64,000 nt of DNA from Eledone cirrhosa. Its lineage: Eukaryota. This document shows, piece after piece, positions 23,120-59,799 of this stretch (its first letter is position 1; the number at the start of each line of letters is the position of its first letter). The position numbers and the translations under genes are program-made. The notes below the pieces were generated by a model, which had not been told where the DNA came from, made no database searches, and saw nothing but the letters and a program-made list of their open reading frames with translations. The stretch is from positions 301,506,001 through 301,570,000 of the forward strand of contig OZ024742.1 of NCBI GenBank assembly GCA_964016885.1, in the 5' to 3' direction.

Positions 23120-23198
23120 TATCTCCTGATGAAACCTAACTCTGGACAATTCACATTATTTGGATGTCCTAAATAAGGAAGAAACCATGGTAGAGATA
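23120..23198 (+). ncRNA. Type I hammerhead ribozyme (Penelope pLTR-type)
   Basis: TATCTC-CTGATGA-[48 nt with CCT/AGG and GGACA/TGTCC]-GAAAC-CATG-GTA-GAGATA: perfect 6-bp stem I and palindromic stem III. Confidence 0.8.
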
Positions 23199-23481
23199 TA
23201 ATTACGGTATGTGCGCATTTCTTCTAAGGTTAATTTTACTACTAATTATGTGTGATTGATAGTATATTTGATCGGATTCTGCATGCTGCCGAAATGTTTG
23301 ATAAATAATGGAACGGGGCTGCCGCAAAGAGGCTGCGATCAATTGTTTGTCAGAGATTTCCCCGTAAGAAAATTTATTCTTAAGGCTTGCTAGATTTGAT
23401 TTTGTATATGGTTAATTATGCTAATTGGAAGAAGAAATAGTATATATTTTAATATCTGATTGATTCTATAGACATGATTTA

Positions 23482-23529
<48 letters not shown>

Positions 23530-23796
23530 TCTTCAGCCGAGTTTACACTCGCATATATATATATATATATGTGTGTGTGCGAAATATTCATATTCATGGA
23601 AATTTAAGACTTGACTCGTTCTTCCTCACTTTTCGTTGCTTCACCATTTTTGTTTGTTTACACTCTCGCTGTTCCCTTTATTTACGTGTCCCTACGACTT
23701 TTTGTAGCCGTTGCTCGCACCAACCGGAGGTATATGGTCTTTAAAGCGAAGAAATACTGATGATGGTTGGAAGATCACTGATGAAGGACCACTTTA

Positions 23797-23797
<1 letters not shown>

Positions 23798-23832
<35 letters not shown>

Positions 23833-23851
23833 ATATATATATATATAATAT

Positions 23852-23935
<84 letters not shown>

Positions 23936-24003
23936 ATATATATATATATGTAATATATATATATATGTAATATATATATATATGTAATATATATATATAT
24001 GTA

Positions 24004-24035
<32 letters not shown>

Positions 24036-24152
24036 TATATATAATATATATATATATAATATATATATATATTATATATATGTGTATATATATATACATA
24101 TATATATATATATAATATATATATATATATTATATATATGTGTATATATATA

Positions 24153-24215
<63 letters not shown>
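23798..24215. repeat. (TA)n microsatellite; others at 22620-22775, 31892-32385 and 62894-63187
   Basis: Seen directly in the sequence. Confidence 0.95.
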
Positions 24216-24219
<4 letters not shown>

Positions 24220-24513
24220 AAATTAAATAAATGGAAACTATATTTATAAAACCATATTTATTTTATTATATATATTTCAAGGGTACCAAAAGACTTAGGT
24301 ACGCTTTCTTCAGATAAAATACAAAGTTTGTTTTATAAATAGAGACATACCCAGGAAAATCATACCTTATCAGTTGGATATTCTCTGGATAGTGGAAATG
24401 TATTAGGGATTTTTCAAACTTATGGGTGAATATGCAAATGAATATGTAAATAATTGAAAAACAACCGTTTATTTAAACGACTATGGAGAGAGAGAAGAGA
24501 AGAAGGACAAAAT

Positions 24514-24566
<53 letters not shown>

Positions 24567-25125
24567 AGAAGGAAAAAAAGCGAAGATGAATAAAAAAAAC
24601 TCATATAACGTGAATTTGAGGGAAATATATTCGGACAATTATGTATATATGTAAATATATATCATAATATTATGTGTATTTATATTAAAAGGATATTTTA
24701 CGATTATTAGTTGTTTAAAATTTGTTTATAATATAATTGTTTCTACTTTAGGCACAAGGCCAGCAATTACCCAGTGCTACTGGTACTTTATTTTATCAAC
24801 CCCGTAAGGATGAAAGGCAAAGTCAACCTCGGCGGGATTTGAACTCAGATCGTAAAGGGACATAACTATGCTGGAAAGCATGGCGTCCGACCCTCTACCG
24901 ATACTGCCAATCCAATACTTTTTCATTCGTTTATAAGTAGATAAATAAATAAATAGATGGGTATATCGTGTTATAGATAGTTGTTCTAATGAGTTATGAG
25001 GGATATTGGTTTTGTATTTTATGTAAATAAATATGTATTTAAAATTGAGAGTAATTTAAAATTAAATTTAATTAAATTAAATTAACTGAGTTAAGTAAGA
25101 ATATTTATATTATATGATTGAAAAG

Positions 25126-26379
25126 GGATCTTGTGGGGTTATTTATTAATAATACACTGCATAGAAAAATACCAGAGATGACCGGTGGTTTATATCGTGA
25201 TGATATGCTGCTTTTAATTGAAAATCATAGTAATTGGAAAATTAATAGGAAAAGAAAATCCATAATACAATTCTTCAATAACTACAACCTTAAGTTAGAA
25301 ATAGAGAATAACTATAAAATCGTTAACTTTTTAGACGTAACATTAAACCTTAGCACAGGGCTCTACTATCCATTCCATAAAATTAATGAGAATCTAAACT
25401 ATGTAAGTTTTAACTCTAATCATCCTAGATCTATCAAGAACACTATTGTCAATTGTGTCCAACAACGGATTTCACGCATCTCCGCTAATAAAAACATTTT
25501 TGATGATAAGGCTGAATATTATAATGAAGCTTTAAATAGAGCAGGGTATATAAATAAGATTAAATACATCGACAACAATAATAAGGCAAATCACCCTACT
25601 ATTAATTGTAATAATAATAAAAAATTTAACTTAAACTCTAAAACTAACAGAAGAACTAGAACTAGAAATATTATTTGGTATTCACCCCCATTCTCATTAA
25701 GCGTTAAAACACCTTAGCAAAGCTAATCTTTAAAGCACTAGACAAATGTTTTCCTAAAGCCCACAGATACCACTCAATCTTTAACAGACATACTATAAAA
25801 CTATTCTACTCTACTACTATGAACATAGCACAAAATATAAATAGAATTAATAATAGAAACTTAAATTTAAACCCTAACCAAAATAGCAGTAATAATTCTA
25901 GCAATATCCAACCTCATAGTACCGTTCCGAGCAACAACAACTCCGCAAAATGTAACTGTAGAATTAAATCAAACTGTCCTTTACAAAATAAGTGTTTAGA
26001 TAAAAACGTGGTCTATAAATGCACAGTTAAAACTAGTGATAATATATTTAACTATGTCGGTGCAACTTCTACAGAATTTAAAATTCGCTGGAATAACCAC
26101 AATTTTTCTCTCTGAAGATTTGATAAAAAATCTTCAACTTCTCTTTCAAACCTGATATGGAACTTAAAATGCAAGAATATAGACTATTCATTAGCTTGGG
26201 AAACAATTTCAAAAGCACCCGCGTACCGAAACACAGCTCTATCTAGATTCTTCAAATTGTGTATTGAGGAAATTTTTTATATACTTAACTGTAAAAACTC
26301 AATTAATCTAAGAACAAATTTATTTAATTCTTGTAGACATCACCAGAATTCAACATTCAGAACTATATATAACTTATAA
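25126..26379 (+). pseudogene. Penelope-like element (Naiad-type), 5'-truncated RT plus GIY-YIG, with one frameshift and one in-frame TGA
   Basis: DLVGLFI, GLYRDD, VNFLDVTL, SNHP, RNIIWYSPPFS, CNCR..CPL..CL..VVYKC, YVGAT, CIEE, SCRH. Confidence 0.85.
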
Positions 26380-26594
26380 TTATACTTATAATATTCCTAT
26401 TAATCTCCATAACAATCTCATCTACTTGGTTTTAATATATTGATATCTCTAAATCATAATATCTCTAACATTTGTTGTACTTCCACTTCTTAAAAATGTT
26501 CATATAATATATACGTATATAATTCTAATTTTTTTAAATTTTAATTTGAATAAATTTTTATTTCTTTAAAAATTACTTATTTCTTAAAAAATAA

Positions 26595-27581
26595 TCCACT
26601 AATACAAATACTGACCATAGGAACTCTTCTAGAACACAGCACATTATTATAAGTGAGAAGAAATTAACTAAAAGCCGCAAAAGAAACATAACATGGTACA
26701 ACGCACCCTTCAACCTGCAAACTATTGGACAAATCCCCCAAAAATTCTTCGAAATTCTACATAAACATTTTCCGCCAAACCACAGATACCACCAAATATT
26801 TAACAGGTATACTGTTAAATTCTCATACTCTACATCAAATAATCTCCAGCGGAAAATAAGCAACTACAACATTTATAAATTTAAAAATAAAAATAATTTG
26901 ACCACACCACCACAACATAATCTAAATAAGACTACATCTCTTAAAAGGACAAACAATACAATTCTTCGACCTGGAAAACACAACCACCCAAATCACCAAC
27001 ACAAAAACAGCATAACACAAAATCACAATACAACCCCAGCACTAAATCACCCACAAAGCAGCACTCATTTTCTCTCTAACATTAATTGCAATAAGAATAG
27101 CTTAAAGATTAATGAGAATTGTGTAGGTACCTCCAAAAACCATCTTACGTATGGTTGTAATTGCAGAAATAGAAGCGCTTGTCCCTTAAATGGAAACTGT
27201 TTGATTAATAATGTAATATATAAATGCACTGTGTCTATTAATAACTCCAACAAATCATATATAGGATCTACATCGAACACATTTAAGAAAATATATTACG
27301 CACACTCCAGTAGCTTTAACAATACTAAGCTAGCTAACACCACATCCTTAGCTGAAGCAGTAAATGAATATAAAAAGAAAGGAATAGATTTCAAACTATC
27401 GTGGAATACCATTCTACAAAGAACTCCATATCTTGGGAACAGGAGAGAATGCAGATTATGTTCCGGTGAGATCTTGGAAATTACTAAATCTAAAGACGAT
27501 TTATTGAATAAACGACAAGAACTGATTATAGTTTGTAATCACCGTATACGAAAAACATTTAAATACTATAAACCTAACTAA
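26595..27581 (+). CDS. Second Naiad-type linker plus GIY-YIG reading frame, uninterrupted, with no RT and no ATG
   Basis: Open from 26595: RKRNITWYNAPF, HFPPNHRYHQIFNR, CNCRNRSACPLNGNCL..VIYKC, YIGST, CRLC..E, LLNKRQE..CNH. Confidence 0.8.
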   Translation, partial: STNTNTDHRNSSRTQHIIISEKKLTKSRKRNITWYNAPFNLQTIGQIPQKFFEILHKHFPPNHRYHQIFNRYTVKFSYSTSNNLQRKISNYNIYKFKNKNNLTTPPQHNLNKTTSLKRTNNTILRPGKHNHPNHQHKNSITQNHNTTPALNHPQSSTHFLSNINCNKNSLKINENCVGTSKNHLTYGCNCRNRSACPLNGNCLINNVIYKCTVSINNSNKSYIGSTSNTFKKIYYAHSSSFNNTKLANTTSLAEAVNEYKKKGIDFKLSWNTILQRTPYLGNRRECRLCSGEILEITKSKDDLLNKRQELIIVCNHRIRKTFKYYKPN

Positions 27582-28142
27582 ACATTCTAGATAACAGCTC
27601 ACTATAGTTCTATGTGACGAACCTTTTTATTAATATCCCTTTCTCCTAAAATCTTTTAACCTTTGAATTTTTTAGCTTCCATAGATTCATGTGTTACTGA
27701 CTATTTTATTACATTATATTATATTAATATATTATTGTATTTAATTATCTTATTATAATTTTAATATTTTAATATACTATCCTTCCTAATTATGACCATT
27801 AACTTACCTATCTATATTTATTCTAGTTATTTCCGTATATCTCATATCTCTTTATTTATATTCACCTAAAAAAATCCATTCAACACAACTCAACATACAC
27901 ATTTTTTTTAAATTTCATTACACCAACTGCAATCCACTATTAATACAATCCCCTTTCTCTATAAGTAATTCTATTTTTAACACCTTTCAACCATTCCTTT
28001 AAAAAGGTCGTGACCTTAGCTGGAGTGGGTTTTATTTCGTCTTAGCATCATTTGGCAAAATACCATTTGATTGGTTTATTCTTCGGCAGCCTCCAAATAA
28101 GGTAATTAAACCCAATTTACTACTGATATTGAATAAAATTCT

Positions 28143-28284
28143 CATTGCTTTTGAGAACAGCTGATGATATACAAGTAGGTAAATATTCTACTTATCTGAT
28201 ATTTTGTAACTAACCTTACATAGATCGATAACGAAATATGCGTACGATGTATTATTATCACCTAGAAACGATCGTAAAGCAGTG
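28143..28284 (+). ncRNA. Degenerate hammerhead-like motif in the pLTR downstream of the GIY-YIG ORF
   Basis: CATTGCTT ... CTGATGA (28161) - ~97 nt - GAAAC-GATC-GTA-AAGCAGTG. Stem I is offset from the core by ~10 nt. Confidence 0.45.
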
Positions 28285-28368
28285 AAGTATTTTCCTAATG
28301 ACTTGAATTTTTATTTCATTGTTTTAACTTATATATATATATATATATATACATATATATATACACAC

Positions 28369-29427
28369 ACACACATACCACAATACATTTTCCCCTCCCT
28401 TGCACGTGTACATACACACACACACAGACTCGCACATATATTCTTACACATATGTATACATGTACACACATAAAAGAATGTACAAAAAATGCATGTAAGA
28501 AAAGCATATAAGGATACACATTGGGTTGTGCATGCAGACGGAGTTGATATTATGCTGCCAATGGGGATGAATCCGCGTATAGACACCTCAAGCAAGGCTA
28601 CATATGGGGAGTTCATGGTATTAACGTAAAGGGTATGCCCAGACCGTATATAGTAGATGTTTGTATGATATATAAAAGAATGTATGCAGAATATATTTTT
28701 TTTTAAATAAATAAATAAAATTTTTTTAAATTAAAAATATATAAAGAATGCATAAAAAATGTATATGTATATATAAAAAGATATATAAAAAAATATATAT
28801 TAAAAAAAATATATATATTAAAAAAAATACATACATCTGAATTATATAAGAAAAGTATACAAAGATATACATTGGTCTGTACATGGAAAAATACATGGGG
28901 TGTTACGTAATGGAGTCCGTGGAGAATATGCACATACCACTGAAAAAATACACATGCAGGGAGTGTGTGAACAGGCCATAAAGGAGCATGTCACTGAGGG
29001 TGATATAGAGTGCCTTATTGATGTATGGTACGAGACCGTCTATCCGTGGAAGTTGAGCCACCGTGTCCCGGCTCATGCGATGTCGTTGCCTAGGATGACG
29101 TGCCGAGTCCGATAGGCAGCATAGGCTGCGTCGACTTACCCCACAGGGCATACATAGTCAACCAGGTATGGTGTCTGAACTCTCCATATGTAGCCTTGCT
29201 TGAGGTGTCTATACGCGGATTCATCCACGTTGGCAGCATAATATCAACTCCGTCTGCATGCACAATGTGTATGCTTATATGCTCTTCTTACATGTATTGT
29301 TTGTACATTCTTTTATGTGTGTGTAGATGTGTGTACATGTATACATATGTGTAAGAATATATGTGCGGGTCTGTGTGTGTGTGTGTATGCACATGTGCAG
29401 GGCGGGGATGTATTGTGGTATGTGTGT
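28369..29427. mobile_element. Unclassified fold-back element with ~250-bp inverted arms
   Basis: Arms 28369-28615 and 29176-29427 are reverse complements. Confidence 0.65.
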
Positions 29428-30748
29428 ATCATCATCATCATCATCATCATCAACGTTTAACGTCCGTGTTCCACGCTTGCATGGGTTTGGACGGGGGTAG
29501 TCCCACTTGAGGCAAGAGTGATTGTCTTGCTCGCATAGGACTGTCTGGCAGGTTTTCTACAGTTGGATGCCCTTCCTAACACCAACCACATTTACAGTGT
29601 GGGTCTGGGAGGTTTTTACCGTGTTGCCTACACGGCCACATTACAGCGTGGACTGTGTGTTTTTTTGTCGTGACACCTACACAATCTCATTTGTTTCGGC
29701 CTGGACGGTGTGGCACCAACACAACTTTACATAGAACGGGGTGGCGTGGATGGGTTGGGGGTGGTGGGACGGGGGGGTATTTTGTTAGCGATGCCTACTG
29801 GCTGTAGTAGGTTTTACTATGTATTTAGGTAAGGCGGGTCTTCTCTGTTACTGAGTACCGCCAAAGGTCTCGGTCCAGTGACATTGTCTTGGAGAGGTGT
29901 AAGTGTGTGAGGTCGGAGTTTATCAGCTCGTCCCAGGTTTTTCTAGGTCTGCCTATTCCGTGGCTACCGTCTATCTTTATTGCCCTGCACTTTGTTATAC
30001 AGCTATCGACTTTCATGCGCATCACGTGTCCATACCAACGTAGCCTTCTCTCGAGTAAACAACATCTGATCCCTCTTATTTCTAATTTTTTCCTTAGTTC
30101 ATTTATGCTTTGCTGTTCACGTATATTACTGTTACACATCCAGCGGAGCATGCAAGCTTCGTTCCTCTCTAGTCTGCGTATATCCTCTGCACACAATTCC
30201 CAGGTCTCACTGCCATGCAACATTGCTGTTCGTATGCAGGCATCGTACAACCTGCCTTTCATTTTTAGGGAGAACCCTTTAGCAGCTAATAGTGGTATAA
30301 GCTCTCTGAACTTTTTCCAACCAGTTCTGACTCTAGCTACTGTACTTTCAGAGCACCCTCCCCCACTGCTGATTTTATCACCCAGGTAACGGAAACTGTC
30401 CACTATTTCTATAGAACCCTCTGCGCAATTGAAAGAGCTAGTATTTTGTGGGCACTTGCTGCTACTTATTGCACCAGAGCACCGGCCACATGTAAAATCT
30501 ATGTTCTTAGTTAGCTTACCTGTGATCCCACTACATCTTTTATGCACCCATACTTTGCATTTAGGACATAAAATGGAGTTTCTACCTACGCCTTTCCTAC
30601 ACACCGAGCACGACCATTTCCCAGAAGGGACCGCCGCCTTATTTTCTTTCCTACAAACTAGAACTTTAGTCTTAGCCAGGTTAATTTTAAGGCCTTTTGA
30701 TTCTAGGCAGTGCTTCCATGTTTGGAATTTCTTCTCTAGCTCGGCCAT
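29428..30748 (-). mobile_element. RTE family 1, 5'-truncated copy
   Basis: ORF 29825-30748 (PHD-like finger, RLRWYGHV), 3' UTR and (TGA)n tail. Confidence 0.9.
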
Positions 30749-30753
30749 ATATA

Positions 30754-31891
30754 TCATCATCATCATCATCATCATCAACGTTTAACGTCCGTGTTCCACG
30801 CGTGCATGGGTTTGGACGGGGGTAGTCCCACTTGAGGCAAGAGTGATTGTCTTGCTCGCATAGGACTGTCTGGCAGGTTTTCTACAGTTGGATGCCCTTC
30901 CTAACACCAACCACATTTACAGTGTGGGACTGGGAGGTTTTTACCGTGTTGCCTACACAGCCACATTACAGCGTGGACTGTGTGTTTTTTTGTCGTGACA
31001 CCTACACGATCTCATTTGTTTCGGCCTGGATGGCGCGGCACCAACATAACTTTACATAGAACGGGGTGGTGTGGATGGGGTGGGGGTGGTGGCGGGACGG
31101 GGTGTATTTTGTTAGAGATGCCTACTGGCAAGGCGGGTCTTCTCTGTTACTGAGTACCGCCAAAGGTCTCGGTCCAGTGACATTGTCTTGAAGAGGTGTA
31201 AGTGTGTGAGGTCGGAGTTTATCAGCTCATCCCAGGTTTTTCTAGGTCTGCCTATTCCGTGGCTACCGTCTATCTTTATTGCCCTGCACTTTGTTATACA
31301 GCTATCGACTTTCATGCGCATCACGTGTCCATACCAACGCAGCCTTCTCTCGAGTAAACAACATCTGATTCCTCTTATCTCTAATTTTTTCCTTAGTTCG
31401 TTTATGCTTTGCCGTTCACGTATATTACTGTTACACATCCAGCGGAGCATGCAAGCTTCGTTCCTCTCTAGTCTGCGTATATCCTCTGCACACAATGCCC
31501 AGGTCTCACTACCATGCAACATTGCTGTTCGTATGCAGGCATCGTACAACCTGCCTTTCATTTTTAGGGAGAACCCTTTAGCAGCTAATAGTGGTATAAG
31601 CTCTCTGAACTTTTTCCAACCAGTTCTGACTCTAGCTACAGTACTTTCAGAGCACCCTCCCCCACTGCTGATTTTATCGCCCAGGTAACGGAAGCTGTCC
31701 ACTATTTCTATAGAACCCTCTGCGCAATTGAAAGAGCTAATATTTTGTGGGCACTTGCTGCTACTTATTGCACCAGAACACCGGCCACATGTAAAATCTA
31801 TGTTCTTAGTTAGCTTACCTGTGATCCCACTACATCTTTTATGCACCCATACTTTGCATTTAGGACATAAAATGGAGTTTCTACCTACGCC
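30754..31891 (-). mobile_element. RTE family 1, 5'-truncated copy in tandem with the previous one
   Basis: Near-identical to 29428-30590, with a small deletion around the stop codon. Confidence 0.9.
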
Positions 31892-31897
31892 TATATA

Positions 31898-31962
<65 letters not shown>

Positions 31963-32074
31963 TTGTATGTGTATATGTATGTGTGTGTGTATATATGTAT
32001 GTGTATGTATATGTGCGTGTGTGTATATGTATACGTGTGTGTAGACGTATGTGTGTATACGTGTGTGTGGGTCG

Positions 32075-32150
<76 letters not shown>

Positions 32151-32382
32151 ATGTGTATGTGTGTATATATGCATATGTATGTGCAGATGTGCATATGTGT
32201 TTGCGTAAATGTATTTATGTGTATATATATCTGTGAGTGTATGTGTACATATATGTACGGGTGCGTACGTATGTGTGTGTGTGTGTGTGTGCATGTATAT
32301 ATACAGGTGCGTGTATGTGTGTGTCTGTGTATATGCGTGCGTATATAAACACGCGTGTGTGCCTCTCTGTGGGCATGTATGC

Positions 32383-33160
32383 GTATGGCAGTGAGACATG
32401 GGCATTGTCTGCAGAGGATCTGCGCAGACTGGAGAGGAACGAAGCATGCATGCTCCGCTGGATGTGTAATAGTAATATACATGAATAGCAAAGCATAAAG
32501 GAACTAAGTGAGAAATTAGGTATAAGAGGGATCAGATGCTGTTTACCCGAGAGAAGACTGTTGGTATGGTTACGTGATGCGCATGAAAGACGACAGCTGT
32601 ATAAAAAAGTGCACGGCGATCAAAATTGACAGAAGTTACGGAGTAGGTAGACCCAGAAAAACCTAGACCTTACACACTTACACCTCTCCAAGACAATGTC
32701 GCTGGACCGAGATCTTTGGCGCTACACAGTAATATAGAAAACCCGCCTTGCCTAAGTACAAAGTGAAACCTACAGTCAGTAGGCACCTCTTAATCAAACA
32801 TACAGCCCCCTCCCACTAACCCAACTCCCCCACCCCCATCAACACCACCCCTTTTTCTGTAAATTTATGTTGGTACCACAACATCCAGTCCTAAATAAAT
32901 GAGGTCGTGTAGGTGTCACAACAAAAAAAACACACAGTCCATGCTGTAATGTGGCCGTGTAGGTAACACGGTAAAAACCTCCCAGTCCACACTGTAAACG
33001 TGGTTGATGTTAGGAAGGGCTTCCAGCCATAGAAAACCTGCCAGACAGTCCCATACGAGCGAGACAACCAATCTTGCCTCAAGTGGGACAATTCCCATCT
33101 AAACCCATGCTAGCATGGAAGATAGACGTTAAACGATAATGATGATGATGATGATGATGA
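32383..33160 (+). mobile_element. RTE family 1, 3' fragment
   Basis: [20 protein letters not shown], 3' UTR and (TGA)n tail. Confidence 0.85.
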
Positions 33161-33770: not shown

Positions 33771-33810
<40 letters not shown>

Positions 33811-34198: not shown

Positions 34199-34268
34199 AG
34201 TAAGTAAGACCCCAACGGCTGAGCTCAAGCCGTTTCGACGGCTAATTCTGTACTCACTTTTCCTTCGC

Positions 34269-34297
<29 letters not shown>

Positions 34298-34299
<2 letters not shown>

Positions 34300-36673
34300 A
34301 AACACAAAAGCCTTCCCTAGTGAGGAATGTACATCCCAACATAGCTTAGTTGTCAGCGACCTCACGGTCAGAACTAGACGAGCCCTGAAACAGAGGCCAA
34401 CCTGGAGAAGAAAGATCTGGAAGCTGAAAGTCCCCTCAACCAGTAACAGATTTAAAGATATTTTACTCAACGCCTACGACAGTAAAGAAGAACAGATAGA
34501 GACATTTAACGTAGAAGAGAACTGGGAGTTCCTAAAAAATAACTTACTAGAGGCGACGGATGAGGTTTGTGGCTGGAGTAAGACCTCAAGCAGGAGGAGA
34601 GTGACTTGGTGGTGGAACAATAAGGTAGATGAAGCAGTCAAGGCCAAGAGACAGGCATGGAAAGAATGGAAGAACGGGGGGAGCAGGGTACATTACATAG
34701 AGACCAAGAGGGAAGCTAGGCGACAAGTATACTTGGCTAGGAGGGAAGCAGAGGATAGAAAATTCAAGCATGTTTTACAACGTGAGGACCAGAAACAGGA
34801 GGTATTCAAGATTGCGAGGCAGTGTGTCAGAGATAGTTGTGATGTCATTGGAGAGAAGTGTATCCGGAATGATAAAGGTGAGCTTGCCCTCACAAGTGCT
34901 GAGAAGAAAGATGCATGGAAGAGTCATTATGATAGATTACTAAATGAGGAGAATGCATGGGAAGAAGAGACCCTACCCCACGTAGACCCTATAGAGGGAC
35001 CAGCAGTACAAGTCAGCGGCAGCGTAGTAAGTAAGGCAATCAGAGATATGAAGATAGGGAAGGCAACCGGTCCATCGGGTATAGCTGCCGAGATGCTGAA
35101 GGCATCTGGGTCTGTAGGTCACACTATAACCACACGTATCGTTAACCAGGTAATACTAGAGGGGGCCATACCAAAAGATTGGTGCAGTAGCATCATTGTC
35201 AACTGCTACAAAGGTAAAGGCGATGCACTAGATAGAGGAAACTATAGAGGTATAAAGTTGATGGACCAGGTCATGAAAGTAACAGAAAGAGTTATAGCAC
35301 AGCTGATTAGGGACCGGGTGAATATAGACGAGATGCAATTTGGGTTTGTTCCAGGGAAAGGCACCACTGATGCGCTCTTCCTTGTGAGGCAATTACAGGA
35401 AAAGTACCTAGCTAAAAGTAAGCCACTCTACTTGGCATTTGTCGACCTTGAGAAAGCCTTTGACAGAGTTCCACGTGCAGTAATCTGGTGGGCTCTTAGA
35501 AAACTAGGAGTAGATGAATGGCTTGTGAAAGCGGTACAAGCCATGTATAGGGGAGCAGTCAGCAAAGTTAGGATTGGCAATGAGTATAGCGAGGAATTTA
35601 GCGTACAGGTTGGGGTCCACCAGGGCTCTGTTCTTAGCCCTCTCCTGTTCATCATAGTCCTGCAGGCAATAACGGAGGAGTTTAAGACCGGATGCCCATG
35701 GGAACTCCTGTATGCTGATGACCTCGCACTCATAGCTGAATCTATGGTAGAACTAGAGAATAAATTCCAAACCTGGAAGCAGGGACTAGAGAGAAAGGGC
35801 CTCAAAGTCAACATGACAAAGACTAAGGTCCTTATAAGTAGACGAGAAAACAGAACCCAGATCCCCTCAGGGAAATGGCCTTGCTCAGTATGTAGGAAAG
35901 GTGTAGGTAGGAACTCCATTCTTTGCCCCAAATGCAAACAATGGGTACACAAGAGATGTAGCGGGATCTCAGGAAGCTTAATTAAGAATGTAGGATTCAC
36001 ATGCAGCAGCTGTGCTGAAACAGCAAGCAAACAGCCACAGGAAACAAGTACCACCAATCTCTGGGAGGGCCCTGTAGAAACAGTAGACAGCTTCTGCTAC
36101 CTAGGTGACCGAATTAGCAACGGAGGTGGGTGCTCAGAAAGTACAATAACTAGGGTAAGAACGGGATGGAAGAAGTTTAGGGAACTACTACCACTGCTAG
36201 CTGCAAAAGGCTTCTCCCTCAGAATGAAAGGCAGACTGTATGATGCGTGTATCCGAACAGCGATGTTGCATGGTAGTGAGACCTGGGCGCTGAAGGTGGA
36301 AGACTTACGTAGATTAGAGAGAAACGAAGCCTGCATGCTCCGATGGATGTGTAACAGTAATATACGTGAACGACAAAGCATAAATGAATTGAGAGAGAGA
36401 CTGAGCATAAGAGGAATCAAATGCTGCGTGCAGGAGAGGCGGTTACGCTGGTATGGACATGTGATGCGTATGAAGGATGACAGCTGCATAAAAAGGTGCA
36501 GAGCACTAGAAGTTGATGGAAACCGCGGAGTGGGGAGACCCAAGATGACTTGGGATGAGGTGATAAAAGCCGACCTTACCCAACTACACCTCTCAAAGTC
36601 AATGACACACGACCGTGACTTCTGGCGTCACGCAGTAATACAGGGTACCCGACCTCCCATGGGTACATGCTGA
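34298..36673 (+). CDS. RTE family 2 ORF, 5'-truncated within the APE domain, otherwise uninterrupted (RT and PHD-like finger)
   Basis: Open from 34298 (QHSLVVSDL) to TGA at 36673. RT motifs as in family 1; CSVC..CPKC..HKRC..CSSC at 35882-36013. Confidence 0.93.
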
Positions 36674-50673: not shown

Positions 50674-50707
<34 letters not shown>

Positions 50708-50719
50708 TGTATATTTGTA

Positions 50720-50736
<17 letters not shown>

Positions 50737-50751
<15 letters not shown>

Positions 50752-52860
50752 AATGAAATATTGTGTACAGTGCTCAGGTGCACTACAACTCATCAAAAAG
50801 TGTATGTATAGTACATAGGGTAAATGTACAAACGTCAGGAAAATGAACAGTGCATGAGTCATGATACACACGTGTGCATGTGTATGGAAGGGGTACATCA
50901 GGTGTAGTTTTGGCGTATTTCGGGAAGCATGAGTATCTTAAAGGATGCAGTGTCTCGACAGCTAACAACTGACGCAGGCAGTTTGTTCCATGCTTCAGCA
51001 ACTCTGAGCGTGAAAAAATGTTTACGAAAGTCATGGGAGCTGTGCTGTTTTCTGATTTTGTAAGGCATGTCCACGTGTGTTAGACACATGGAGATCAACA
51101 AGGTGCTCAGGGTTGTTGTTGGCGAGATGGTTAATAACTTTGTGGGTATTTACCAAGTCCATTGCCAGACGTCGGAGCTTCAATGAATCCATGCCCAGGG
51201 AAGCAAGGCGTTCAGAGTATGGTAGGTGTCTGATGGAGGGTATGCGCTTGGTTGCACGTCTCTGAACAGATTCCAGGCGGTCAATGTTCTGAGCAAGATA
51301 GGGGTTCCAGACTGATGATGCGAATTCCAAGTGTGGTCGTACCATAGCTGTATACAGTTTTAAATAGATGGCTGGAGAGCAGTTAACAAAGGTCTTGCTG
51401 AGTGATGCCAAGACACCCTCGGCCTTTTTGACAATCTTAGAGACATGCTTTGTCCAATGCAAATCGCTGCTGACAGTAATGCCCAGGTCACGTTCACAAG
51501 AGGACTTCTTGATATCAGTGTTGTAGAGGGAGTATGTGGATGCTGGATTTTTCCTCCCAAAATGCATGTGGTACACTTGTCCACAGCCAGCTTCAGTTGC
51601 CAGTCTGTGATCCATTGCTGCATTGTGTCCAGGTCTGATTGTAGGAAAGAGTTGTAGATTTCAGGATCAGTCCTTTTGATTTCAAGGTACAGCTTGATGT
51701 CATCTGCATATTTCAGTACCATGGCATTCTATAAGTTGGCATCTATGTCATTAATATATGCCACAAACAAAAGGGGACCAAGAACAGATCCCTGTGGTAC
51801 ACCAGATGACATCTCATATGGTGAAGAATGCTGTCCTAGAACCGTGACTACATCTTTTCGGCTGAGAATGAAGGATTTCAACCAGTCGAAAAGATCATCC
51901 CTCACACCAATTGCAGAGAGTTTTGCCATAAGTCTTTTGTGTGGCACAGAATTAAAAGCCTTAGCAAAGTCAAGGTAAACAACATCCACCCATGAGCCGC
52001 TGTCAGTGATCCGGGTGATGTCTTCAAGGAACTCGATAAGCTGATCACAGCAGCTGGAGTTAGGGATAAATCCAAACTGTGAGGGCCGGATGAGGCTGTG
52101 AGAGCTCCAGAAGTTCCAAAGTGTTTCTCTGACACAGGATTCCATCAGTTTGGCCATACAGCTAGTAAGACTGACTGGACGATAGTTGACAGGTGACATG
52201 TGGTTGCCCTTTTTGAACAGGGGAATGACACTGGCAGTTTTCCACTGCTCCGGAGTAGCACCATTGTTGAGACAGTATTGAAAGAAGAAAGAAAGCTGGC
52301 GCAAAAGGAAATAGCCGCCACGTTTGAGAAGCAGGTATGTAACACCATCAAGACAAGGGGAGGCATAGTTGCGCTTATTCTTAAGGTGACGTCGCAACAT
52401 TGCAGGTGTAAATTCCATAGTTGTTATAGAATTTGATGTTAGAGATGGTGGAGAAGGTACATTCTGGTTTTCAACCGTAAAAATACTTGCATAGCACTCA
52501 GCAATGAGATCTGCGCATTCTTTGGGATCGTCAGTGATCTGGCTTGTGTGGGGATTGCGAAGAGGACCAACTGGAGAGTGAGGTCTCTGCTTTGAATGAA
52601 CATATTTCCAGAACACCTTACTGTCAGGATTGGTTGCTATGCACTGTTCAAATTCAAGCACTGCCTTCTTTGTCACTTGCTTGAGATGGTTAGAAGATTT
52701 ATTCCGCTTTTTTCTGTTGGCATCTGATTTATGCAGTTTATATTCCCGTTCAGCGTTCCGACGTTCTTTCCTGGCAAGTCGGACCACTGAAGTTTCCCAA
52801 ATTGCACTTTTGGGGTGGTTTTTTTTCTGCTTATGTGGCACCGATGCTGCACACGCTATC
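50737..52860 (-). mobile_element. CR1-group LINE, 5'-truncated and frameshifted, with an (ATT)n tail
   Basis: NYRPVSLTS, YLDFAKAF, SGVPQGSVLGPLLF, YADD, VRPHLEFASSVWNP, LESVQRRATK, TRGH. Confidence 0.9.
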
Positions 52861-52879
52861 CATATATATATTTGATGCT

Positions 52880-53220
52880 ACAATAACAGTATCAACACCA
52901 TTGTCTGCAGCAACAGCAGCAGTGAAATGAAGAACAACAACAACACCATTGTCTGTGTTGAATGTGTGTGTATGTATGTATTTATATATATGCGACTACA
53001 ATAACAGCATAAACACCATTGTCTGCAGCATCAGTGAAGAACAACAACAACGGCAGCAGCAGCAACAACAACAACAACAGCAACAACAACAGCAACAGCA
53101 GCAGCAACTACAATAACAACTACAGCAACAACAACTGCCAACACCATCACTGACCATCCACCACTATCACCATACTGACACCATCCACCACCATCACCAC
53201 CACCACCACCATTACCAGCG
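52880..53220. repeat. (CAA/CAG/CAC)n low-complexity block with a repeated AACACCATTGTCTG motif
   Basis: Seen directly in the sequence. Confidence 0.7.
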
Positions 53221-53604
53221 TAAAGCAATCAATTATTATATAAAAATAATAATTGATTGACTTTGCCTTTCATCCTTACGGGGTCGATAAAATAAAGTAC
53301 CAGTAATGAACTGGGTAATTGCTGGCCTTGTGCCTAAAGTAGAAACAATTATTATTATATAAAAAACTGAACTGGACTGGGAAAAGTCAACAGTTGACAT
53401 GATTTTGATTTTGTATCAGTACTGTCGGTAATATATATATATATATATATGTGTGTGATTGTGAGTGGTGTGTGTGTTTGTATGCATGAATGAGTGTTGG
53501 TATGTGAGTGGCGTGTGTGTTTGTGGTTTGTATGCATGAGTGTTGGTGTGTGAGTGTGTGTGTGTGTGTCGTGTCAATAAGTGTTTTTTTTGTTTTGTTT
53601 TTTT

Positions 53605-56600
53605 TTAATGACCATGCTGTAAAATGGAGGGGTAGAGAGGGCCCTTGAGTCTAGTAAGACATCCTCTCTAGTGCTGGTGGCACAAATAAAAGCACCCAGT
53701 CCATGCTGTAAAGTGGCGCTGGTGTTAGGAAGGGCATCCAACCAGTGTATCAATGCCAAAACGCTTATCAGCACAGCAACAAATAGGAACAACAACAAAA
53801 TATGAGACGTCGCATCTCAGAGTTGCAACACTTAATGTTGGCACTCTCAGAGGTAGATCTGCTGAAATAGCGGAGATGCTGGAGAGAAGGCATGTGGATG
53901 TGTGCTGCGTGCAAGAGGTGAGATGGAGAGGTGCCTCTGCAAGACTAGTCATAGGCAAACGTCTTAGCTATAAGCTATTCTGGGTAGGTAAGGATGATGG
54001 GTTAGGGGGAGTAGGCATTTTCCTGGCTGAGAAATGGATCAATAAGACAATAGAGGTAGTTTGAGTTAGTAATCGAATAATTAAGCTTAGATTAGTTGTA
54101 GGCAGGAGACTACTGAAAATCATCTCTGCCTATGCTCCCCAAGCAGGCCTAGGTAAAGATGAGAAAGACTGCTTTTACGAGCAACTTTTACAAACAACCA
54201 CAATGACAGAGGACGGGGACATCGTTATGCTAGCAGGAGACTTCAATGGTCATGAAGGACAGCTCCAGGATGGTTACACTTGGGTACATGGTGGCCACGG
54301 TTACGGCTCAAGAAATGAAGAAGGAGTGAGACTTCTTGAATTTTGTGATGCGGGTACATTGACTATTTGCAACACAAACTTCCAGAAACCTGCCAATCAC
54401 CTAATAACCTACAAATCTGGTGAACACATAAGCCAGATTGACTTCTTACTAGTTAGGCAGCGGGACAGGCAGATAGTGTCTAATACCAAGGCATACCCTG
54501 GAGAAGAATGTACCCCACAGCATAGGTTAGTCGTTAGTGATATCTCAGTAAGCAAGAGATGGAATGAGACATACAGGAAGGTGTGGAGAAGAAAGGTCTG
54601 GAAGCTAAAAGACCTTTCACTAAAATACAAATTTAGGAAAGCCCTTCAAGATGTATATGATGAAAAAGAAGACGATTTAGAGACGTATGACATAGATAAT
54701 AACTACGTGACAACTTGCTGCAGACTACTGATGAAACTTGTGGCTGCAGCAGAGCTCCAACCAGGCAGAGAGTGAGCTGGTGGTGGAACAGCACAGTAGA
54801 TAAGGCCATTAGAGACAAAATACTGGCATGGAAGGCTTGGAAAAAGGGTGGGAGTAGGGAAGAATATACAGCCACTAAGAGAGAAGCTAGACGTCAGGTG
54901 TACTTAGCACGCAGGGAGGCAGAGAGTAGGAAGTTTGCCAATGTTCTGTGACGGGAAGATCAGAGGTGTCCGGTGTTCCACATTGCAAGGCAGTGTTCTC
55001 AATGCAAATCAGGATGTTGTTGGAGATAAATGTGTCCAGGATGATGCCGGTGTACTTAGTGTCACGAATGATCAGAAAAAGGAGGCCTGGAAATGTCATT
55101 ATGAGAGACTGATGAATGCGGAGAACGAATGGGAGAGAGAGAAATTACCCTTAGTAGATCCGACAGAGGGACCAGCTATTGAGATTGACGAATATAGGGT
55201 CCAAGAGGCGATTAGGGAAATGAAAAATTATAAGGCTGCTGAACCATCGGGAATAGTTGCTGAGATGCTGAAGGCATCAGAGGATGTAGGCACTAAACTG
55301 GTTGCACGCATCATCAATCAGGCTATATATGGTGGTGTCATATCCAAAGACTGGTGCAGCAGTATTCTCATAAATTGATACAAATGTAAAGGCGATGCTC
55401 TGGAGAGGAGCAATTATAGGGGTATAAAACTGATGGATCAGGTTATGAAAGTGGCAGAAGGATATTAGCACAACTAATTAGAGAAAAGGTCAAACTAGAT
55501 GAGATGCAGTTTGGTTTTGTGCCTGGGAAGAGTACAACAGATGCCCTCTTCTTGGTGAGACAATTGCAAGAGAGGTTCTTAGAAAAAAATAAGCCACTAT
55601 ACTTAGCCTTTGTTGACCTAGAGAAGGCCTTTGATAGGGTACCCCGATCTGTCATCTGGTGGTCCCTAAGAAAGCTAGGTGTTGAGGAATGGCTTGTGAG
55701 GACAGTGCAAACTTTGTACAGAGGTACTCTCAGTAAAGTCAGGGTAGGAATGGAGTTTAGTGAGGAATTCCAGATACAAGTAGGAGTACATCAAGGTTCG
55801 GTCCTCAGCCCGCTCTTGTTCATTATCGTCCTCCAAGCCAAAACAGAGGAGTTTAAGACTGGCTGACCATGGGAACTTCTCTATGCTGACGATCTGGTTC
55901 TTATAGCAGAATCAGTAGAGGAGCTAGAGAATAAATTCTGGCTATGGAAACAGCAGTTGGAAGCAAGAGGACTGAGAGTGAACCTAGCTAAGACAAAAGT
56001 GTTGATGAGTAGAAAAGAGGACAAAACTCTGATTCCGTCAGGGAAATGGCCATGTTCGATATGCAGGAAAGGAACTGGCATAAATTCTATAAAATGCACA
56101 CAATGCAAATCCTGGGTACACAAGAGATGTAGCGGGATAGCAGGCAAACTAACAGGTAAGGAGAAATATGTATGCAGTAGATGTACAGGGAAATTAGACA
56201 GTAGAAGTCGCATTGATAGACACATTTTTCAAATGCGAGAGGGCGCTATAGAAGTGGTGGACAGCTTCCGGTACCTAGATCAGATTAGCATGGGAGGAGG
56301 GTGTTCTGAGGCCATAGTATCTAGAATAAGGACAGGCTGGAAGAAGTTTAGGGAGCTGCTGACGAAGAAGGGTTTCTCCCTGCCTACAAAAGGCCGGTTG
56401 TATGATGCCTGTGTGAGGAGCGCGATGCTGCATGGTAGTGAGACATGGGCAGCAACTGCAGAGGATATGCGACGGCTGGAGAGAAATGAGGCAAGCATGC
56501 TCCGTTGGATGTGCAGTGTAAATGTGCATGAACGACCCAGCATAAATGTGTTGAGAGAGAAACTGTGTCTGAGAGGGATAGAATGTAGTGTACGGGAGAG

Positions 56601-56875
56601 GAGACTGAGGTGGAATGGACATGTGATGCGCATGGAGGATGACCGATGGGTGAAGAAGTGCCAGGAAATGCCAGTTGAAGGAAGACGTGGTAGAGATAGA
56701 CCACGAAAAACATGGGCGGATGTGGTGAGAACAGACCTCAGATGATTGAAGCTCATGGTGGAGATGACGAAGGACCATGACGAGTGGAGAGATGCTGTGC
56801 TGAATAAGATCCGTCCCACCCTTGCAAGCAGGGAAAAGTGGACGTAAAATGATGATGAAGATGATGATGATGATA
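53605..56875 (+). mobile_element. RTE family 3, near full-length but degenerate (5' UTR, APE, RT, PHD-like finger, very short 3' end)
   Basis: ATLNVGTL, CVQEVRW, AGDFNGH, QIDFLL, QHRLVVSD and RT motifs, with several stops and frameshifts. Tail GGACGTAAAA(TGA)n. Confidence 0.92.
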
Positions 56876-56966
56876 TAATATATAATGGACCTGTTATTTT
56901 TGTCTAAAGTCATTTTTTCCAATTCCATCCCGGACGTCCCCTCAATCTATTTTATTTCTCATTCTT

Positions 56967-57002
56967 TCTTCTGATGAAGGACTAGCGTCCGAAACGTTAA
57001 GA
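56967..57002 (+). ncRNA. Minimal type I hammerhead ribozyme in a short pLTR-like remnant (~56880-57045)
   Basis: TCTT-CTGATGA-AGGACtagcGTCC-GAAACGTT-AAGA. Confidence 0.8.
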
Positions 57003-57068
57003 CCCTCTCCTGCTATATCAAGCGTTAACCTAATATATACCTTCCATATATATATATATATATATATA

Positions 57069-58181
57069 TCATCATCATCATCATCATCATCATCATTTTA
57101 CGTCCGCTCTTCCCAGCTTGCAAGGGTGGAACGGGTCTTATTCAGCACAGCATCTCTCCACTTGTCACAGTCCTTCGTCATCGCCACCATGAGCTTCAGC
57201 GATCTGAGGTCTGTTCTCACCACCTCCACCCATGTTTTTTGTGGTCTACCTCTACCACGTCTTCCTTCAACTGGCATTTCCTGGCACTTCTTCACCCATC
57301 GGTCATCCTCCATGCGCATCACATGTCCATTCCACCTCAGTCTCCTCTCCCGTACACTACATTCTATCCCTCTCAGACACAGTTTCTCTCTCAACACATT
57401 CATGCTGGGTTGTTCATGCACATTGACACTGCACATCCAACGGAGCATGCTTGCCTCATTTCTCTCCAGCCATTGCATATCCTCTGTAGTTGCTGCCCAT
57501 GTCTCACTTCCATGCAGCATCGTGCACAGGCATCATACAACCGGCCTTTCGTACGCAGGGAAAAACCCTTCTTCGTCAGCAGAGGAAGCAGCTCCCTAAA
57601 CTTCTTCCAACCCGTCCTTATTCTAGATACTATGGCCTCGGAACAACCCCGCCCCCCCCCTCCCATGGTAATCTGATCACCTAGATACCGGAAGGCACCC
57701 ACCACTTCTATAGCACCCGCCTGCATTTGAAAAATGTGTCTATCAATGCGACTTCTACTGTCTAATTTCCCTGTACATCTACTGCATACATATTTCTCCC
57801 TACCTGTTAGTTTGCTTGCTATCCCACTACATCTCTTGTGTACCCAGGATCTGCATTGTGTGCATTTTATAGAATTTATGCCAGTTCCTTTCCTGCATAT
57901 CGAACATGGCCATTTCCCTGACGGAATCAGAGTTTTGTCCTCTTTTCTACTCATCAACACTTTTGTCTTAGCTAGGTTCACTCTCAGTCCTCTTGCTTCC
58001 AACTGCTGTTTCCATAGCCAGAATTTATTCTCTAGCTCCTCTACTGATTCTGCTATAAGAACCAGATCATCAGCATAGAGAAGTTCCCATGGTCAGCCAG
58101 TCTTAAACTCTTCTGTTATGGCTTGGAGGACTATAATGAACAAGAGCGGGCTGAGGACCAAACTTTGATGTACTCCTACTT
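57069..58181 (-). mobile_element. RTE family 3, 5'-truncated copy, tail-to-tail with 53605-56875
   Basis: Reverse complement of ~55778-56850. Confidence 0.9.
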
Positions 58182-58245
58182 GGGACAAACTCATCTAACC
58201 CATGCTAACGTGGAAGCTAGATGTTAATTGATGATGAGGATGAAG

Positions 58246-58292
<47 letters not shown>

Positions 58293-58503
58293 CAGGATGG
58301 ATTCATTTTGAAACATGCTAGACCATTACTCAACAGAGTACTCAATACTTGGGGTAGTAGAGTATGATTATGTTATAAAGAATCGGGACCTCGATGACTG
58401 AGCTCTACCATTGGGGTCCTGACTTTTTATAATATATATATATATATAGAATAATATATATATATATATAGAAGTAGTAACACAACAGTTAATTCACCAT
58501 ACC

Positions 58504-58540
58504 GAGAACAATTGTTTCACCTTATGCAGATCTTCAGCTC
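58504..58540 (-). ncRNA. Minimal hammerhead within inverted repeat 58469-58534/58740-58805
   Basis: GAG-CTGAAGA-TCTgcataAGGT-GAAAC-AATT-GTT-CTC. Confidence 0.65.
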
Positions 58541-58905
58541 AGACTGGTCATGATTATACGGAACAGGAAGAACAACCGTATGAATGCGCATACACAGAAA
58601 AGGTCATTTCACCCAAGCGATACAAAACCACGGGCGAAAGGTGTAAGGGAGATAACTGCAAAAGTCCGGAATAAAATGTTCGAGTTGATTAGAAAATTAG
58701 AATGTTGTTGTTATTCAATCCGGAACTTTGTAGTTATGCAAGATCCGCATAAGGTGAAAAAATTGTTCTCGGTATGGTGAACTAACTGTTGTGTTACTAC
58801 TTCTACCAAACTCGTCCCATGAACTGAGTGCTCCAGCACTACGGATATTACCTTCCAGTGTTCTACCTCTCTCTCTATATATATATATATAATTCAAATT
58901 TATAG

Positions 58906-59554
58906 ATCATCATCATCATCATCATCATCATCAACGTTTAACGTCCGTGTTCCACGCTTGCATGGGTTTGGACGGGGGTATTCCCACTTGAGGCAAGAGT
59001 GATTGTCTTGCTCGCATAGGACTGTCTGGCAGGTTTTCTACAGTTGGATGCCCTTCCTAACACCAACCACATTTACAGTGTGGGACTGGGAGGTTTTTAC
59101 CGTGTTGCCTACACGGCCACATTACAGCGTGGACTGTGTGTTTTTTTGTCGTGACACCTACACGATCTCATTTGTTTCGGCCTGGATGTTGTGGCACCAA
59201 CATAACTTTACATAGGAAGGGGTGGTGTGGATGGGGGTGGTGGGACGGGGTTGTTAGAGATGCCTACTGGCTGTAGTAGGTTTTACTATGTATTTAGGTA
59301 AAGCGGGTCTTCTCTATTACTGAGTACCGCCAAAGGTCTCGGTCCAGTGACATTGTCTTGGAGAGGTGTAAGTGTGTGAGGTCAGAGTTTATCAGCTCGT
59401 CCCAGGATTTTCTAGGTCTGCCTATTCCGTGGCTACCGTCTATCTTTATTGCCCTGCACTTTGTTATACAGCTATCGACTTTCATGCGCATCATGTGTCC
59501 GTACCAACGTAGCCTTCTCTCGAGTAAACAACATCTGATCCCTCTTATTTCTAA
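58906..59554 (-). mobile_element. RTE family 1, 3' fragment
   Basis: Near-identical to 29428-30085. Confidence 0.9.
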
Positions 59555-59671
59555 ATGTATATATAAAGAGAGAAAGAACCATATATCTTAAGAGAAAACA
59601 TAGTATCTTGTACACACACAAAAAGCATATATATCAAGGAAGAATACGTATTTCAGATGGAAAAAGTTCTT

Positions 59672-59799
59672 ATTCCTTATGGTCATTTCATGATACGAGG
59701 CGAACCAAAACTTAAATTCGATCTAAGCAATCAATCATTGATCACCCACTATCAATTTTGGTTAAGTTATGGGAGAAGCGAATCAATCATCAGAGGAAT
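59672..59799 (-). ncRNA. Type I hammerhead with a ~97-nt stem II region
   Basis: ATTCCT-CTGATGA-TTGAT...ATCAT-GAAAT-GACC-ATA-AGGAAT: perfect 6-bp stem I. Confidence 0.65.

What the first reader, a model, noticed from the sequence alone, without database searches (positions are those of the whole stretch)
23120..59799. A set of atypical hammerheads with long stem II inserts and a mismatched base of stem II
Unrelated elements in the window share the type I layout. Stem II is ~48 nt (23133) or ~97 nt (28168, 59690, possibly 22202). It opens with U.U (4888-4899, 58519-58530, 59690-59786) or A.A (23133) instead of the usual purine-pyrimidine pair. Standard hammerhead descriptors may miss such variants. 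Two sit downstream of Naiad-type GIY-YIG frames, suggesting a lineage-specific ribozyme architecture in which stem II might host an extra signal.
Basis: partly seen in the sequence, partly recalled or inferred. Interest (0 to 1): 0.7.

Follow-up and report, generated by a model that had tools for sequence, protein, structure and literature searches.

The report
Long-armed, pseudoknot-braced hammerheads in retroelements
These are hammerhead (predicted self-cutting) RNA motifs carried by Penelope-type jumping genes and their small non-coding passengers; their second arm is two to four times longer than standard search patterns allow, and in one subgroup a loop in that arm likely pairs with the sequence just upstream to brace the ribozyme, but cutting has not been tested.

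Summary
Largely real, partly misread. Type I hammerheads sit at 23126 (domain II 48 nt) and 59793(-) (97 nt). The 28168 and 22202 registers are wrong: the true cores are U3-A8 variants at 28151 (107 nt) and 22239 (53 nt, normal G-C). 4888-4899 lacks stem I. The coding carriers are Hydra-clade, not Naiad; three carriers are non-coding 556-675-nt tandem units with Penelope-type insertion marks. In 1.4 Mb sampled across the genome, 110 motifs passed (37 with domain II over 40 nt) against 0 in reversed sequence, and only C3-G8 or U3-A8 cores were enriched. U·U at the base of stem II is already published, and here the base varies (U·U, A·A, C·A, A·G, G-C). The newer part: the long arm is a short helix, an internal loop and a hairpin; in 7 of 8 clusters of 41-70 nt the loop can pair with the 5' leader (p=0.00015, post hoc; compensatory changes in one group). 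That mirrors a known type III design. No shared 'extra signal' sequence was found. Cleavage is untested. This scan noted long-armed and pseudoknot-braced hammerheads before on other DNA of this genome.

The parts
22077..22614 (+). Copy of non-coding tandem family F22 (unit about 557 nt; 3' end holds an inherited 141-nt duplication)
22223..22320 (+). Type I hammerhead, U3-A8 core 22239-22245, domain II 22246-22298 (53 nt, G-C base), predicted cut after 22314; leader-loop pseudoknot in the family, damaged in this copy
22800..23488 (+). Copy of non-coding tandem family F23 (unit about 675 nt), ending at the family's fixed 3' end before (TA)n
23115..23198 (+). Type I hammerhead: leader 23115-23119, stem I 23120-23125/23193-23198, core 23126-23132, domain II 23133-23180 (48 nt, A·A base), loop 23138-23142 complementary to the leader (5 bp), predicted cut after 23192
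24156..25128 (-). Inverted 3' UTR of Hydra-clade element A, with a type I hammerhead at 24321..24259 (core 24313-24307, domain II 28 nt)
25118..26591 (+). Hydra-clade PLE A, 5'-truncated: RT end, thumb, CxCx5C linker, C-terminal GIY-YIG, in three broken frames
   Evidence: motifs compared by eye
26593..28334 (+). Hydra-clade PLE B, 5'-truncated; ORF 26595-27578 with CxCx5C linker and C-terminal GIY-YIG; ends at (TA)n
28142..28285 (+). Type I hammerhead in the 3' UTR of PLE B: 9-bp stem I, U3-A8 core 28151-28157, domain II 28158-28264 (107-nt rod, C·A base), predicted cut after 28276; no leader pseudoknot seen
59547..59903 (-). 5'-truncated copy of old non-coding family F59 (unit about 556-630 nt)
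59672..59809 (-). Type I hammerhead: core 59793-59787, domain II 59786-59690 (97-nt rod, U·U base), predicted cut after 59678; a 4-bp leader-loop pairing in the family majority, lost in this copy
58469..58805 (-). 3' UTR piece of a third Hydra element with a short inverted partner; short U·U hammerhead 58542..58502 of the published Hydra type
4850..5030 (.). Foldback repeat whose two arms are hammerhead halves; core and U·U domain II at 4906..4873(-), no stem I
56967..57002 (+). Ordinary minimal PLE-type hammerhead (extra A, G-C pair, 13-nt domain II)
   Evidence: compared with PMC4209133

Best explanation
These are type I hammerhead motifs of Hydra-clade Penelope-like elements and of non-coding tandem units that are likely copied by such elements, and in the 46-60-nt group the long arm is predicted to work as a normal stem II whose loop pairs with the 5' leader. 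Shown in sequence: domain II is a basal helix of 4-8 bp (often after one mismatch), an internal loop and an apical hairpin; the 5' strand of the loop is complementary over 5-8 nt to the leader lying 0-2 nt before stem I. Inferred: this helix replaces the usual loop I/loop II contact and makes up for the weak base of stem II. The ribozyme would cut tandem precursor RNA after H17, as a monomer or as a dimer through the palindromic stem III; unit-length RNA would be circularised; a PLE protein would nick (TA)n and start reverse transcription at two internal sites downstream of the cut. The 63-116-nt rods, several in Hydra 3' UTRs, mostly lack this pseudoknot; they are most likely tolerated, structure-selected extensions.
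For: Enrichment: 110 hits in 140 x 10 kb, 92 with C3-G8 and 18 with U3-A8; the other 14 combinations gave 9; G17 gave 1; reversed sequence gave 0 for these two cores; 67 hits vs about 0.6 in 12 shuffles of 800 kb. Constraint: in three young families, columns with shared variants were 0 of 33 in the core, 2 of 95 in core+stem I+pseudoknot (p=0.004), 60 of 589 in flanks; N7 varied in 2 of 3. Covariation: alignment A1, 8 of 29 pairs with two-sided change, in stem I, basal helix and apical hairpin (two rows are out of register, which inflates some counts); alignment A2, 9 of 24 pairs, three of them in the pseudoknot, whose five central pairs are paired in 45 of 45 cells. Pseudoknot test: mean score 13.5 vs 9.5 in permutations among 8 clusters of 41-70 nt, p=0.00015; the other three flank/loop pairings were not significant; geometry is tight, 5-9 nt from each side of the core. 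Carriers: no protein match for the F22, F23, F59 units; two fixed 3' ends, scattered 5' ends in 7 of 7 tandem families; copies longer than one unit, inverted partners and (TA)n flanks, as for PLEs (PMC11167929, PMC8557442). Precedent: stem I/II pseudoknots raise cleavage over 100-fold (PMC3088659 section 7).
Against: No cleavage or expression data. The pseudoknot was first seen by eye in the same clusters, and several clusters are related, so the p-value is post hoc and the two-sided changes are few events. In A1 the pseudoknot is conserved but shows no two-sided change. A relaxed search gave 11 further hits of 41-70 nt, several probably spurious; only 1 (a distant relative of F23) showed the pseudoknot clearly. 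With a wider class it is 7 of 9 clusters; over 70 nt it is not significant (p=0.08) and under 41 nt absent. Shared variants in the rest of domain II (15 of 198) are not fewer than in flanks (p=0.17). 5' ends of copies do not pile up at the cut site. The minimum-energy fold of the 23105-23205 copy is not the hammerhead (pseudoknots are not modelled). A PLE hammerhead tested in vitro needed protein and was not needed for insertion (PMC11167929).
Confidence: 0.7

Rival explanations
1. The long arm is mainly a docking or packaging signal for the element's reverse transcriptase, which also switches cleavage on; the leader pairing is secondary.
For: Apical hairpins keep their pairing across subfamilies (5 of 9 pairs with two-sided change); rods of 103-116 nt persist among homologues; PLE protein is needed for hammerhead cleavage in one tested element (PMC11167929). 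Earlier scan notes propose this for the 80-92-nt Hydra arms.
Against: No 6-8-mer is shared by more than 4 of 17 long inserts, and those shared are A/T-rich. Families with 12-15-nt domain II spread just as well (35 of 110 hits). In the tested element the protein-binding region lay in the ORF start, not shown to be stem II (PMC11167929). Small non-canonical loop motifs were not searched for here.
Confidence: 0.2
2. The long forms are catalytically dead relics; hairpins grew by slippage and foldback in a dispensable loop and spread passively.
For: Lengths form a continuum; many single copies are damaged (5 of 30 F59 copies and 11 of 20 F22 copies pass a strict pattern); no pile-up of 5' ends at the cut.
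Against: Across about 26 clusters only paired 3-8 cores and non-G at position 17 occur; young families are mostly intact (21 of 25 F23, 19 of 25 F28); compensatory changes lie in stem I, the basal helix and the pseudoknot.
Confidence: 0.08
3. Chance matches of a loose pattern in A/T-rich repeats.
For: Two or three hits in A/T tracts are clearly spurious (40-nt and 222-nt rows; several rows).
Against: 0.6 expected vs 67 seen; 0 vs 110.
Confidence: 0.01

Closest known systems
Hammerheads of Hydra-clade PLEs (Craig et al. 2021, PMC8557442, section 11 and File S2)
   Same: Type I, in the 3' UTR after a C-terminal GIY-YIG; U·U or other mismatch at the base of stem II in most rows; stem III of 3-4 bp with a 0-3-nt loop; (TA)n targets. 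58537 is simply of this kind.
   Different: Listed Hydra domains II are at most about 24 nt; here 28-107 nt in Hydra UTRs, some with U3-A8. Three non-Hydra rows of File S2 flagged as deviating have longer domains (up to about 50 nt), so long arms are not without precedent.
Metazoan non-LTR retrozymes (Cervera and de la Pena 2020, PMC7229834; bioRxiv 10.64898/2026.07.22.740005)
   Same: Non-coding, low-GC tandem units with one type I hammerhead each; palindromic stem III; one axolotl type has U·U at the base of helix II; proposed to derive from PLEs.
   Different: Units here are 467-675 nt (published 150-450); domain II up to 97 nt; a Watson-Crick leader-loop helix instead of the conserved non-canonical loop contacts; circular RNA not shown here.
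Atypical type III hammerheads of toad and termite HDV-like RNAs and insect genomes (PMC7936874 section 3.1)
   Same: A short stem, an internal loop and an extra capping hairpin of about 20 nt; the 5' side of the internal loop forms a pseudoknot with the other arm.
   Different: There the extension is on helix I of a type III motif and pairs with loop II; here it is on helix II of a type I motif and pairs with the 5' leader. A mirror image.
Pseudoknotted hammerheads and core variants of Perreault et al. 2011 (PMC3088659 sections 7, 8)
   Same: Stem I/II pseudoknot in all three types (about 40%); natural U3-A8 and U10.1-U11.1 variants.
   Different: Text describes terminal loops or tails and stem II often of two pairs; a long capped domain II is not described in the sections read (figures not seen).
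Naiad PLEs (PMC8557442)
   Same: (TA)n targets, partial tandems, inverted partner copies; 'half cores' 35-50 nt apart are noted in Methods.
   Different: Naiads have an N-terminal endonuclease with CCHH and lack canonical hammerheads; the elements here have a C-terminal endonuclease without CCHH.

Membership tests
Type I hammerhead ribozyme | Core CUGANGA/GAAA/UH with paired 3-8 positions | tested here: met
   22239, 23126, 24313, 28151, 56971, 58537, 59793; only C-G and U-A enriched
Type I hammerhead ribozyme | Three helices round the core, stem I open | tested here: met
   Met for the seven above with covariation; not met for 4906, which has no stem I
Type I hammerhead ribozyme | R10.1-Y11.1 pair (typical, not strict) | tested here: not met
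   A·A, U·U, C·A at 23126, 59793, 58537, 28151; met at 22239. U·U is a published active variant (PMC3088659)
Type I hammerhead ribozyme | [quoted passage not shown] | tested here: inconclusive
   Predicted pseudoknot in 7 of 8 clusters of 41-70 nt; not seen for 28151 or the short class
Type I hammerhead ribozyme | Site-specific self-cleavage | not testable with these tools
   Needs a bench assay
Hydra-clade PLE (25118-26591, 26593-28334) | C-terminal GIY-YIG after RT | tested here: met
   Order RT, thumb, linker, endonuclease
Hydra-clade PLE (25118-26591, 26593-28334) | CxCx5C linker; no CCHH; CxxC and CxH near the end | tested here: met
   Read from translations against section 11 and, by eye, File S7
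Hydra-clade PLE (25118-26591, 26593-28334) | N-terminal RWK and DKT motifs; placement on an RT tree | not tested
   Window copies are 5'-truncated; no tree was built
Naiad PLE | N-terminal endonuclease followed by CxC and RT | tested here: not met
   Endonuclease ends the ORF in both elements
Non-LTR retrozyme (F22, F23, F59) | Non-coding tandem unit with a type I hammerhead | tested here: met
   Units 557, 675, 556 nt; longest stop-free frame 76 aa; no tblastn match to 5 window PLE frames
Non-LTR retrozyme (F22, F23, F59) | Unit of 150-450 nt | tested here: not met
   Longer (vs PMC7229834)
Non-LTR retrozyme (F22, F23, F59) | Abundant circular RNA | not testable with these tools
   Needs RNA data or northern blots

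The most novel reading that the evidence does not exclude
An undescribed subclass of type I hammerheads, the mirror image of the pseudoknotted type III form, is carried by tens of thousands of retroelement copies that Rfam and published descriptors cannot see (about 80,000 with domain II over 40 nt if the sample scales). Its leader-loop helix makes it a fast ribozyme despite a mismatched 10.1/11.1 position, and its capping hairpin is the handle by which the Penelope protein picks up non-coding passengers.
Probability: 0.3. Interest if true: 0.68.

Novelty: new variant of a known kind. Interest (0 to 1): 0.52.

Why it matters
Genome counts of hammerheads and retrozymes rest on patterns that cap domain II near 26 nt; here 68 of 110 sampled motifs exceed that, so most of this genome's hammerheads would be missed. 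The families form a natural series (domain II 12-116 nt, five kinds of base, two cores, with and without a brace) for asking how peripheral contacts make up for a weak core. Young, intact, high-copy families such as F23 make the open question of what PLE hammerheads do directly testable.

Tried and rejected
Naiad origin: rejected. Rfam: no hammerhead match. Pfam: no family for the Hydra frames, so the clade rests on motifs. In vivo cleavage from 5' ends of copies: not found; 0 of 47 (F23), 0 of 41 (F59), 3 of 39 (F22) starts lie near the cut, the F22 cluster at +6 to +19 is an inherited internal duplication, and the single +1 starts in F51 and F57 come from the reference locus itself. Shared motif in inserts: none. 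Pseudoknot with the 3' flank or the 3' side of the loop, and in the classes under 41 nt: not significant. The pooled Fisher test is void because the F59 alignment holds unrelated flanks; one search repeats it without F59. Expression: no RNA holder listed. Laying three contig sets of one sample on F23 showed the family at high depth; none of the 40 variants shown of 52 fell in leader, core, stem I, stem III or loop, which is weak. A link of the 49-nt family to a Neptune/Nematis-like endonuclease (clade label recalled) is adjacency in 3 of 7 members, not shown to be one element. A fresh hold-out sample for the pseudoknot was not obtained, so the test stays post hoc. Two relevant papers (small PLE hammerheads that cleave as dimers, 2017; Terminons, 2017) are not held; one search fetched an unrelated paper.
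Full report
Setting. The window lies in an animal assembly of 3.0 Gb, rich in (TA)n and retroelements. A descriptor scan found six type I motifs with an exact CUGANGA core against 0.56 in 100 local dinucleotide shuffles. Four are convincing and named by or near the finding: 23126(+), 59793(-), 58537(-), 24313(-); one is an ordinary minimal motif (56971); one (35715, 150 nt, inside an RT gene) is chance. Allowing core mismatches added 22239 and 28151, both reading UUGANAA, the U3-A8 variant known from PMC4209133 and PMC3088659.

23133 (48 nt, A·A), 59690-59786 (97 nt, U·U) and 58519-58530 (U·U) are right. The 28168 register is wrong: it gives 1 of 6 stem I pairs, against 9 of 9 at 28151; five homologues with 103-116-nt rods carry C3-G8 at that position and keep the same base of stem II. 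The 22202 register has no core. The 4888-4899 motif lacks stem I and is one arm of a foldback repeat present in many copies. The endonuclease frames at 25708-26376 and 26595-27578 follow the RT, have CxCx5C and lack CCHH: Hydra clade, not Naiad (by eye).

Families. Each motif belongs to a repeat family (40 best candidates scored per search; 486 to 2,901 first-look candidates). I aligned 30, 25, 25, 20, 20, 15 and 14 loci. F24, F28 and F58 are 3' UTRs of Hydra elements. F22, F23 and F59 are non-coding units of 556-675 nt. All 7 tandem families examined have two fixed 3' ends and scattered 5' ends; copies often exceed one unit, run across the predicted cut, carry an inverted partner and end in (TA)n. 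This fits the two internal RT starts and tail described for a Poseidon PLE (PMC11167929). It does not tell a circular from a tandem template.

Genome-wide test. In 140 evenly spaced 10-kb stretches, a strict descriptor gave 110 hits: domain II 8-24 nt 35, 25-40 nt 38, 41-70 nt 26, 71-120 nt 11, 121-250 nt 0. Of 16 possible 3/8 combinations, C-G gave 92 and U-A 18, the other 14 gave 9; reversed sequence gave none with these two cores. Hits cluster: 22 of 140 stretches hold one over 40 nt. Scaled up, this is about 235,000 motifs, about 80,000 over 40 nt; a rough figure, weighted to the large chromosomes, and the filter misses F28. The 10.1/11.1 position is U·U in 15 of 35 short and 7 of 11 very long motifs, and G-C in 9, C·A in 7, A·G in 5, A·A in 3 of 26 mid-length ones. 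So the mismatch is common but neither tied to long arms nor new.

Anatomy of the long arm. Of 25 cluster representatives with domain II of 26-96 nt (one spurious row aside), 23 fold with z below -2 against shuffles, best-folding member chosen. In the 46-60-nt group the fold is a basal helix, an internal loop and an apical hairpin. I then noticed by eye that the 5' side of the loop is complementary to the leader just before stem I: GAGUU/AACUC (F23), UGAGG/CCUCA (F22), GAGGU/ACCUC, GAGAAU/AUUCUC, GGAAA/UUUCC, GAGAAG/CUUCUC, GAAAAG/CUUUUC. A permutation test among 8 clusters gave 13.5 vs 9.5, p=0.00015, with three control pairings null. In one homologous group of 9 sequences the five central pairs are paired in 45 of 45 cells, two with G-C/A-U swaps. 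In another group of 11 the helix is conserved without swaps while neighbouring helices covary. Limits: post hoc, related clusters, 1 clear case among 11 relaxed extra hits, not significant above 70 nt. F59 shows a 4-bp version in its majority sequence only; F28 shows none.

Mechanism. [quoted passage not shown] Inferred: the basal helix is the true stem II, the loop is loop II, the leader supplies the partner strand, and the hairpin caps the loop. The non-coding units would be cut to monomers, circularised and copied by a PLE protein. Untested: cleavage, circles, the partner protein.

Against what is known. The published minimal descriptor allows an extra N10 and N11, stem II of 3-7 bp and loop of 3-10 nt, so at most 26 nt. 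Hydra rows of File S2 show the U·U form with short arms. PMC7936874 describes the mirror architecture in type III motifs. Six literature searches gave no paper describing a long, capped, leader-paired domain II in type I motifs of animal retroelements; two 2017 papers on PLE and Terminon hammerheads are not held, figures were not seen, and bioRxiv supplements are closed, so a prior description cannot be excluded.

What I read. PMC4209133: parts 1-2 of 4 and supplement passages (1 of its files not searchable). PMC8557442: passages, sections 6 and 11, supplement parts 1, 2, 24, 52 of 59. PMC3088659: passages, sections 7 and 8. PMC7936874: passages, section 3.1. PMC7229834, PMC11167929, PMC10085705, PMC13725137: passages. 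10.64898/2026.07.22.740005: part 1 of 5 and passages. The label Neptune/Nematis-like is recalled.

Earlier scan notes, opened after my reading was formed, report long-armed Hydra hammerheads and pseudoknot-braced retrozyme hammerheads elsewhere in this genome. They are not independent support. One claim, copies starting at the cut site, was not reproduced in my small sample.

Verdict. Real, abundant and missed by standard searches; a new variant of a known kind. The mismatch is known and the Naiad link is wrong; the long arm and its predicted brace are what deserve a bench test. Interest 0.52.

Noticed in passing
PMC8557442 File S5, 3' ends of two octopus Naiad consensus sequences: By eye the hammerhead blocks appear in scrambled order (cleavage block, GAAA block, CUGAUGA block), like type SGC of PMC10085705. 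Earlier scan notes report the same.
   Followed up: no
window 4850-5030: Foldback of about 62-bp arms whose centre lies just 5' of a hammerhead core; the same centre recurs in 15 of 15 loci aligned.
   Followed up: partly
F23, F22, F59 and four other tandem families: Each has two fixed 3' ends about 60-170 nt apart, downstream of the predicted cut; likely two RT start sites.
   Followed up: partly
window 60338..60296 (-): Short U·U hammerhead (14-nt domain II) with G12 changed to A; member of an abundant family.
   Followed up: partly
window 22323-22600: 141-nt tandem duplication just after the F22 hammerhead, shared by a subfamily (unit about 693 nt in L089).
   Followed up: yes
window 24156-28334: Nested layout: inverted 3' UTR of Hydra A, sense Hydra A, then Hydra B inserted or fused at 26593; A and B share a 190-nt UTR stretch.
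   Followed up: partly
window 5249-5700 (+): Broken CCHH-type GIY-YIG frame of another PLE clade; no hammerhead found after it by the scan.
   Followed up: no
window 11348-13072, 29825-32503, 34223-36673, 55420-58092: Several RTE-like LINE copies with a PHD finger after the RT (clade label recalled).
   Followed up: no
window 17827-20972 (+): LTR-retrotransposon pol frame of 958 aa (RT, RNase H, integrase).
   Followed up: no
L029, L192, L273: A 95-97-nt domain II that folds as a three-way junction and has a 4-5-bp leader pairing.
   Followed up: partly
L203, L213: The 49-nt family lies 2.1-2.5 kb behind a non-Hydra PLE endonuclease in 3 of 7 members; a second carrier clade is possible.
   Followed up: partly
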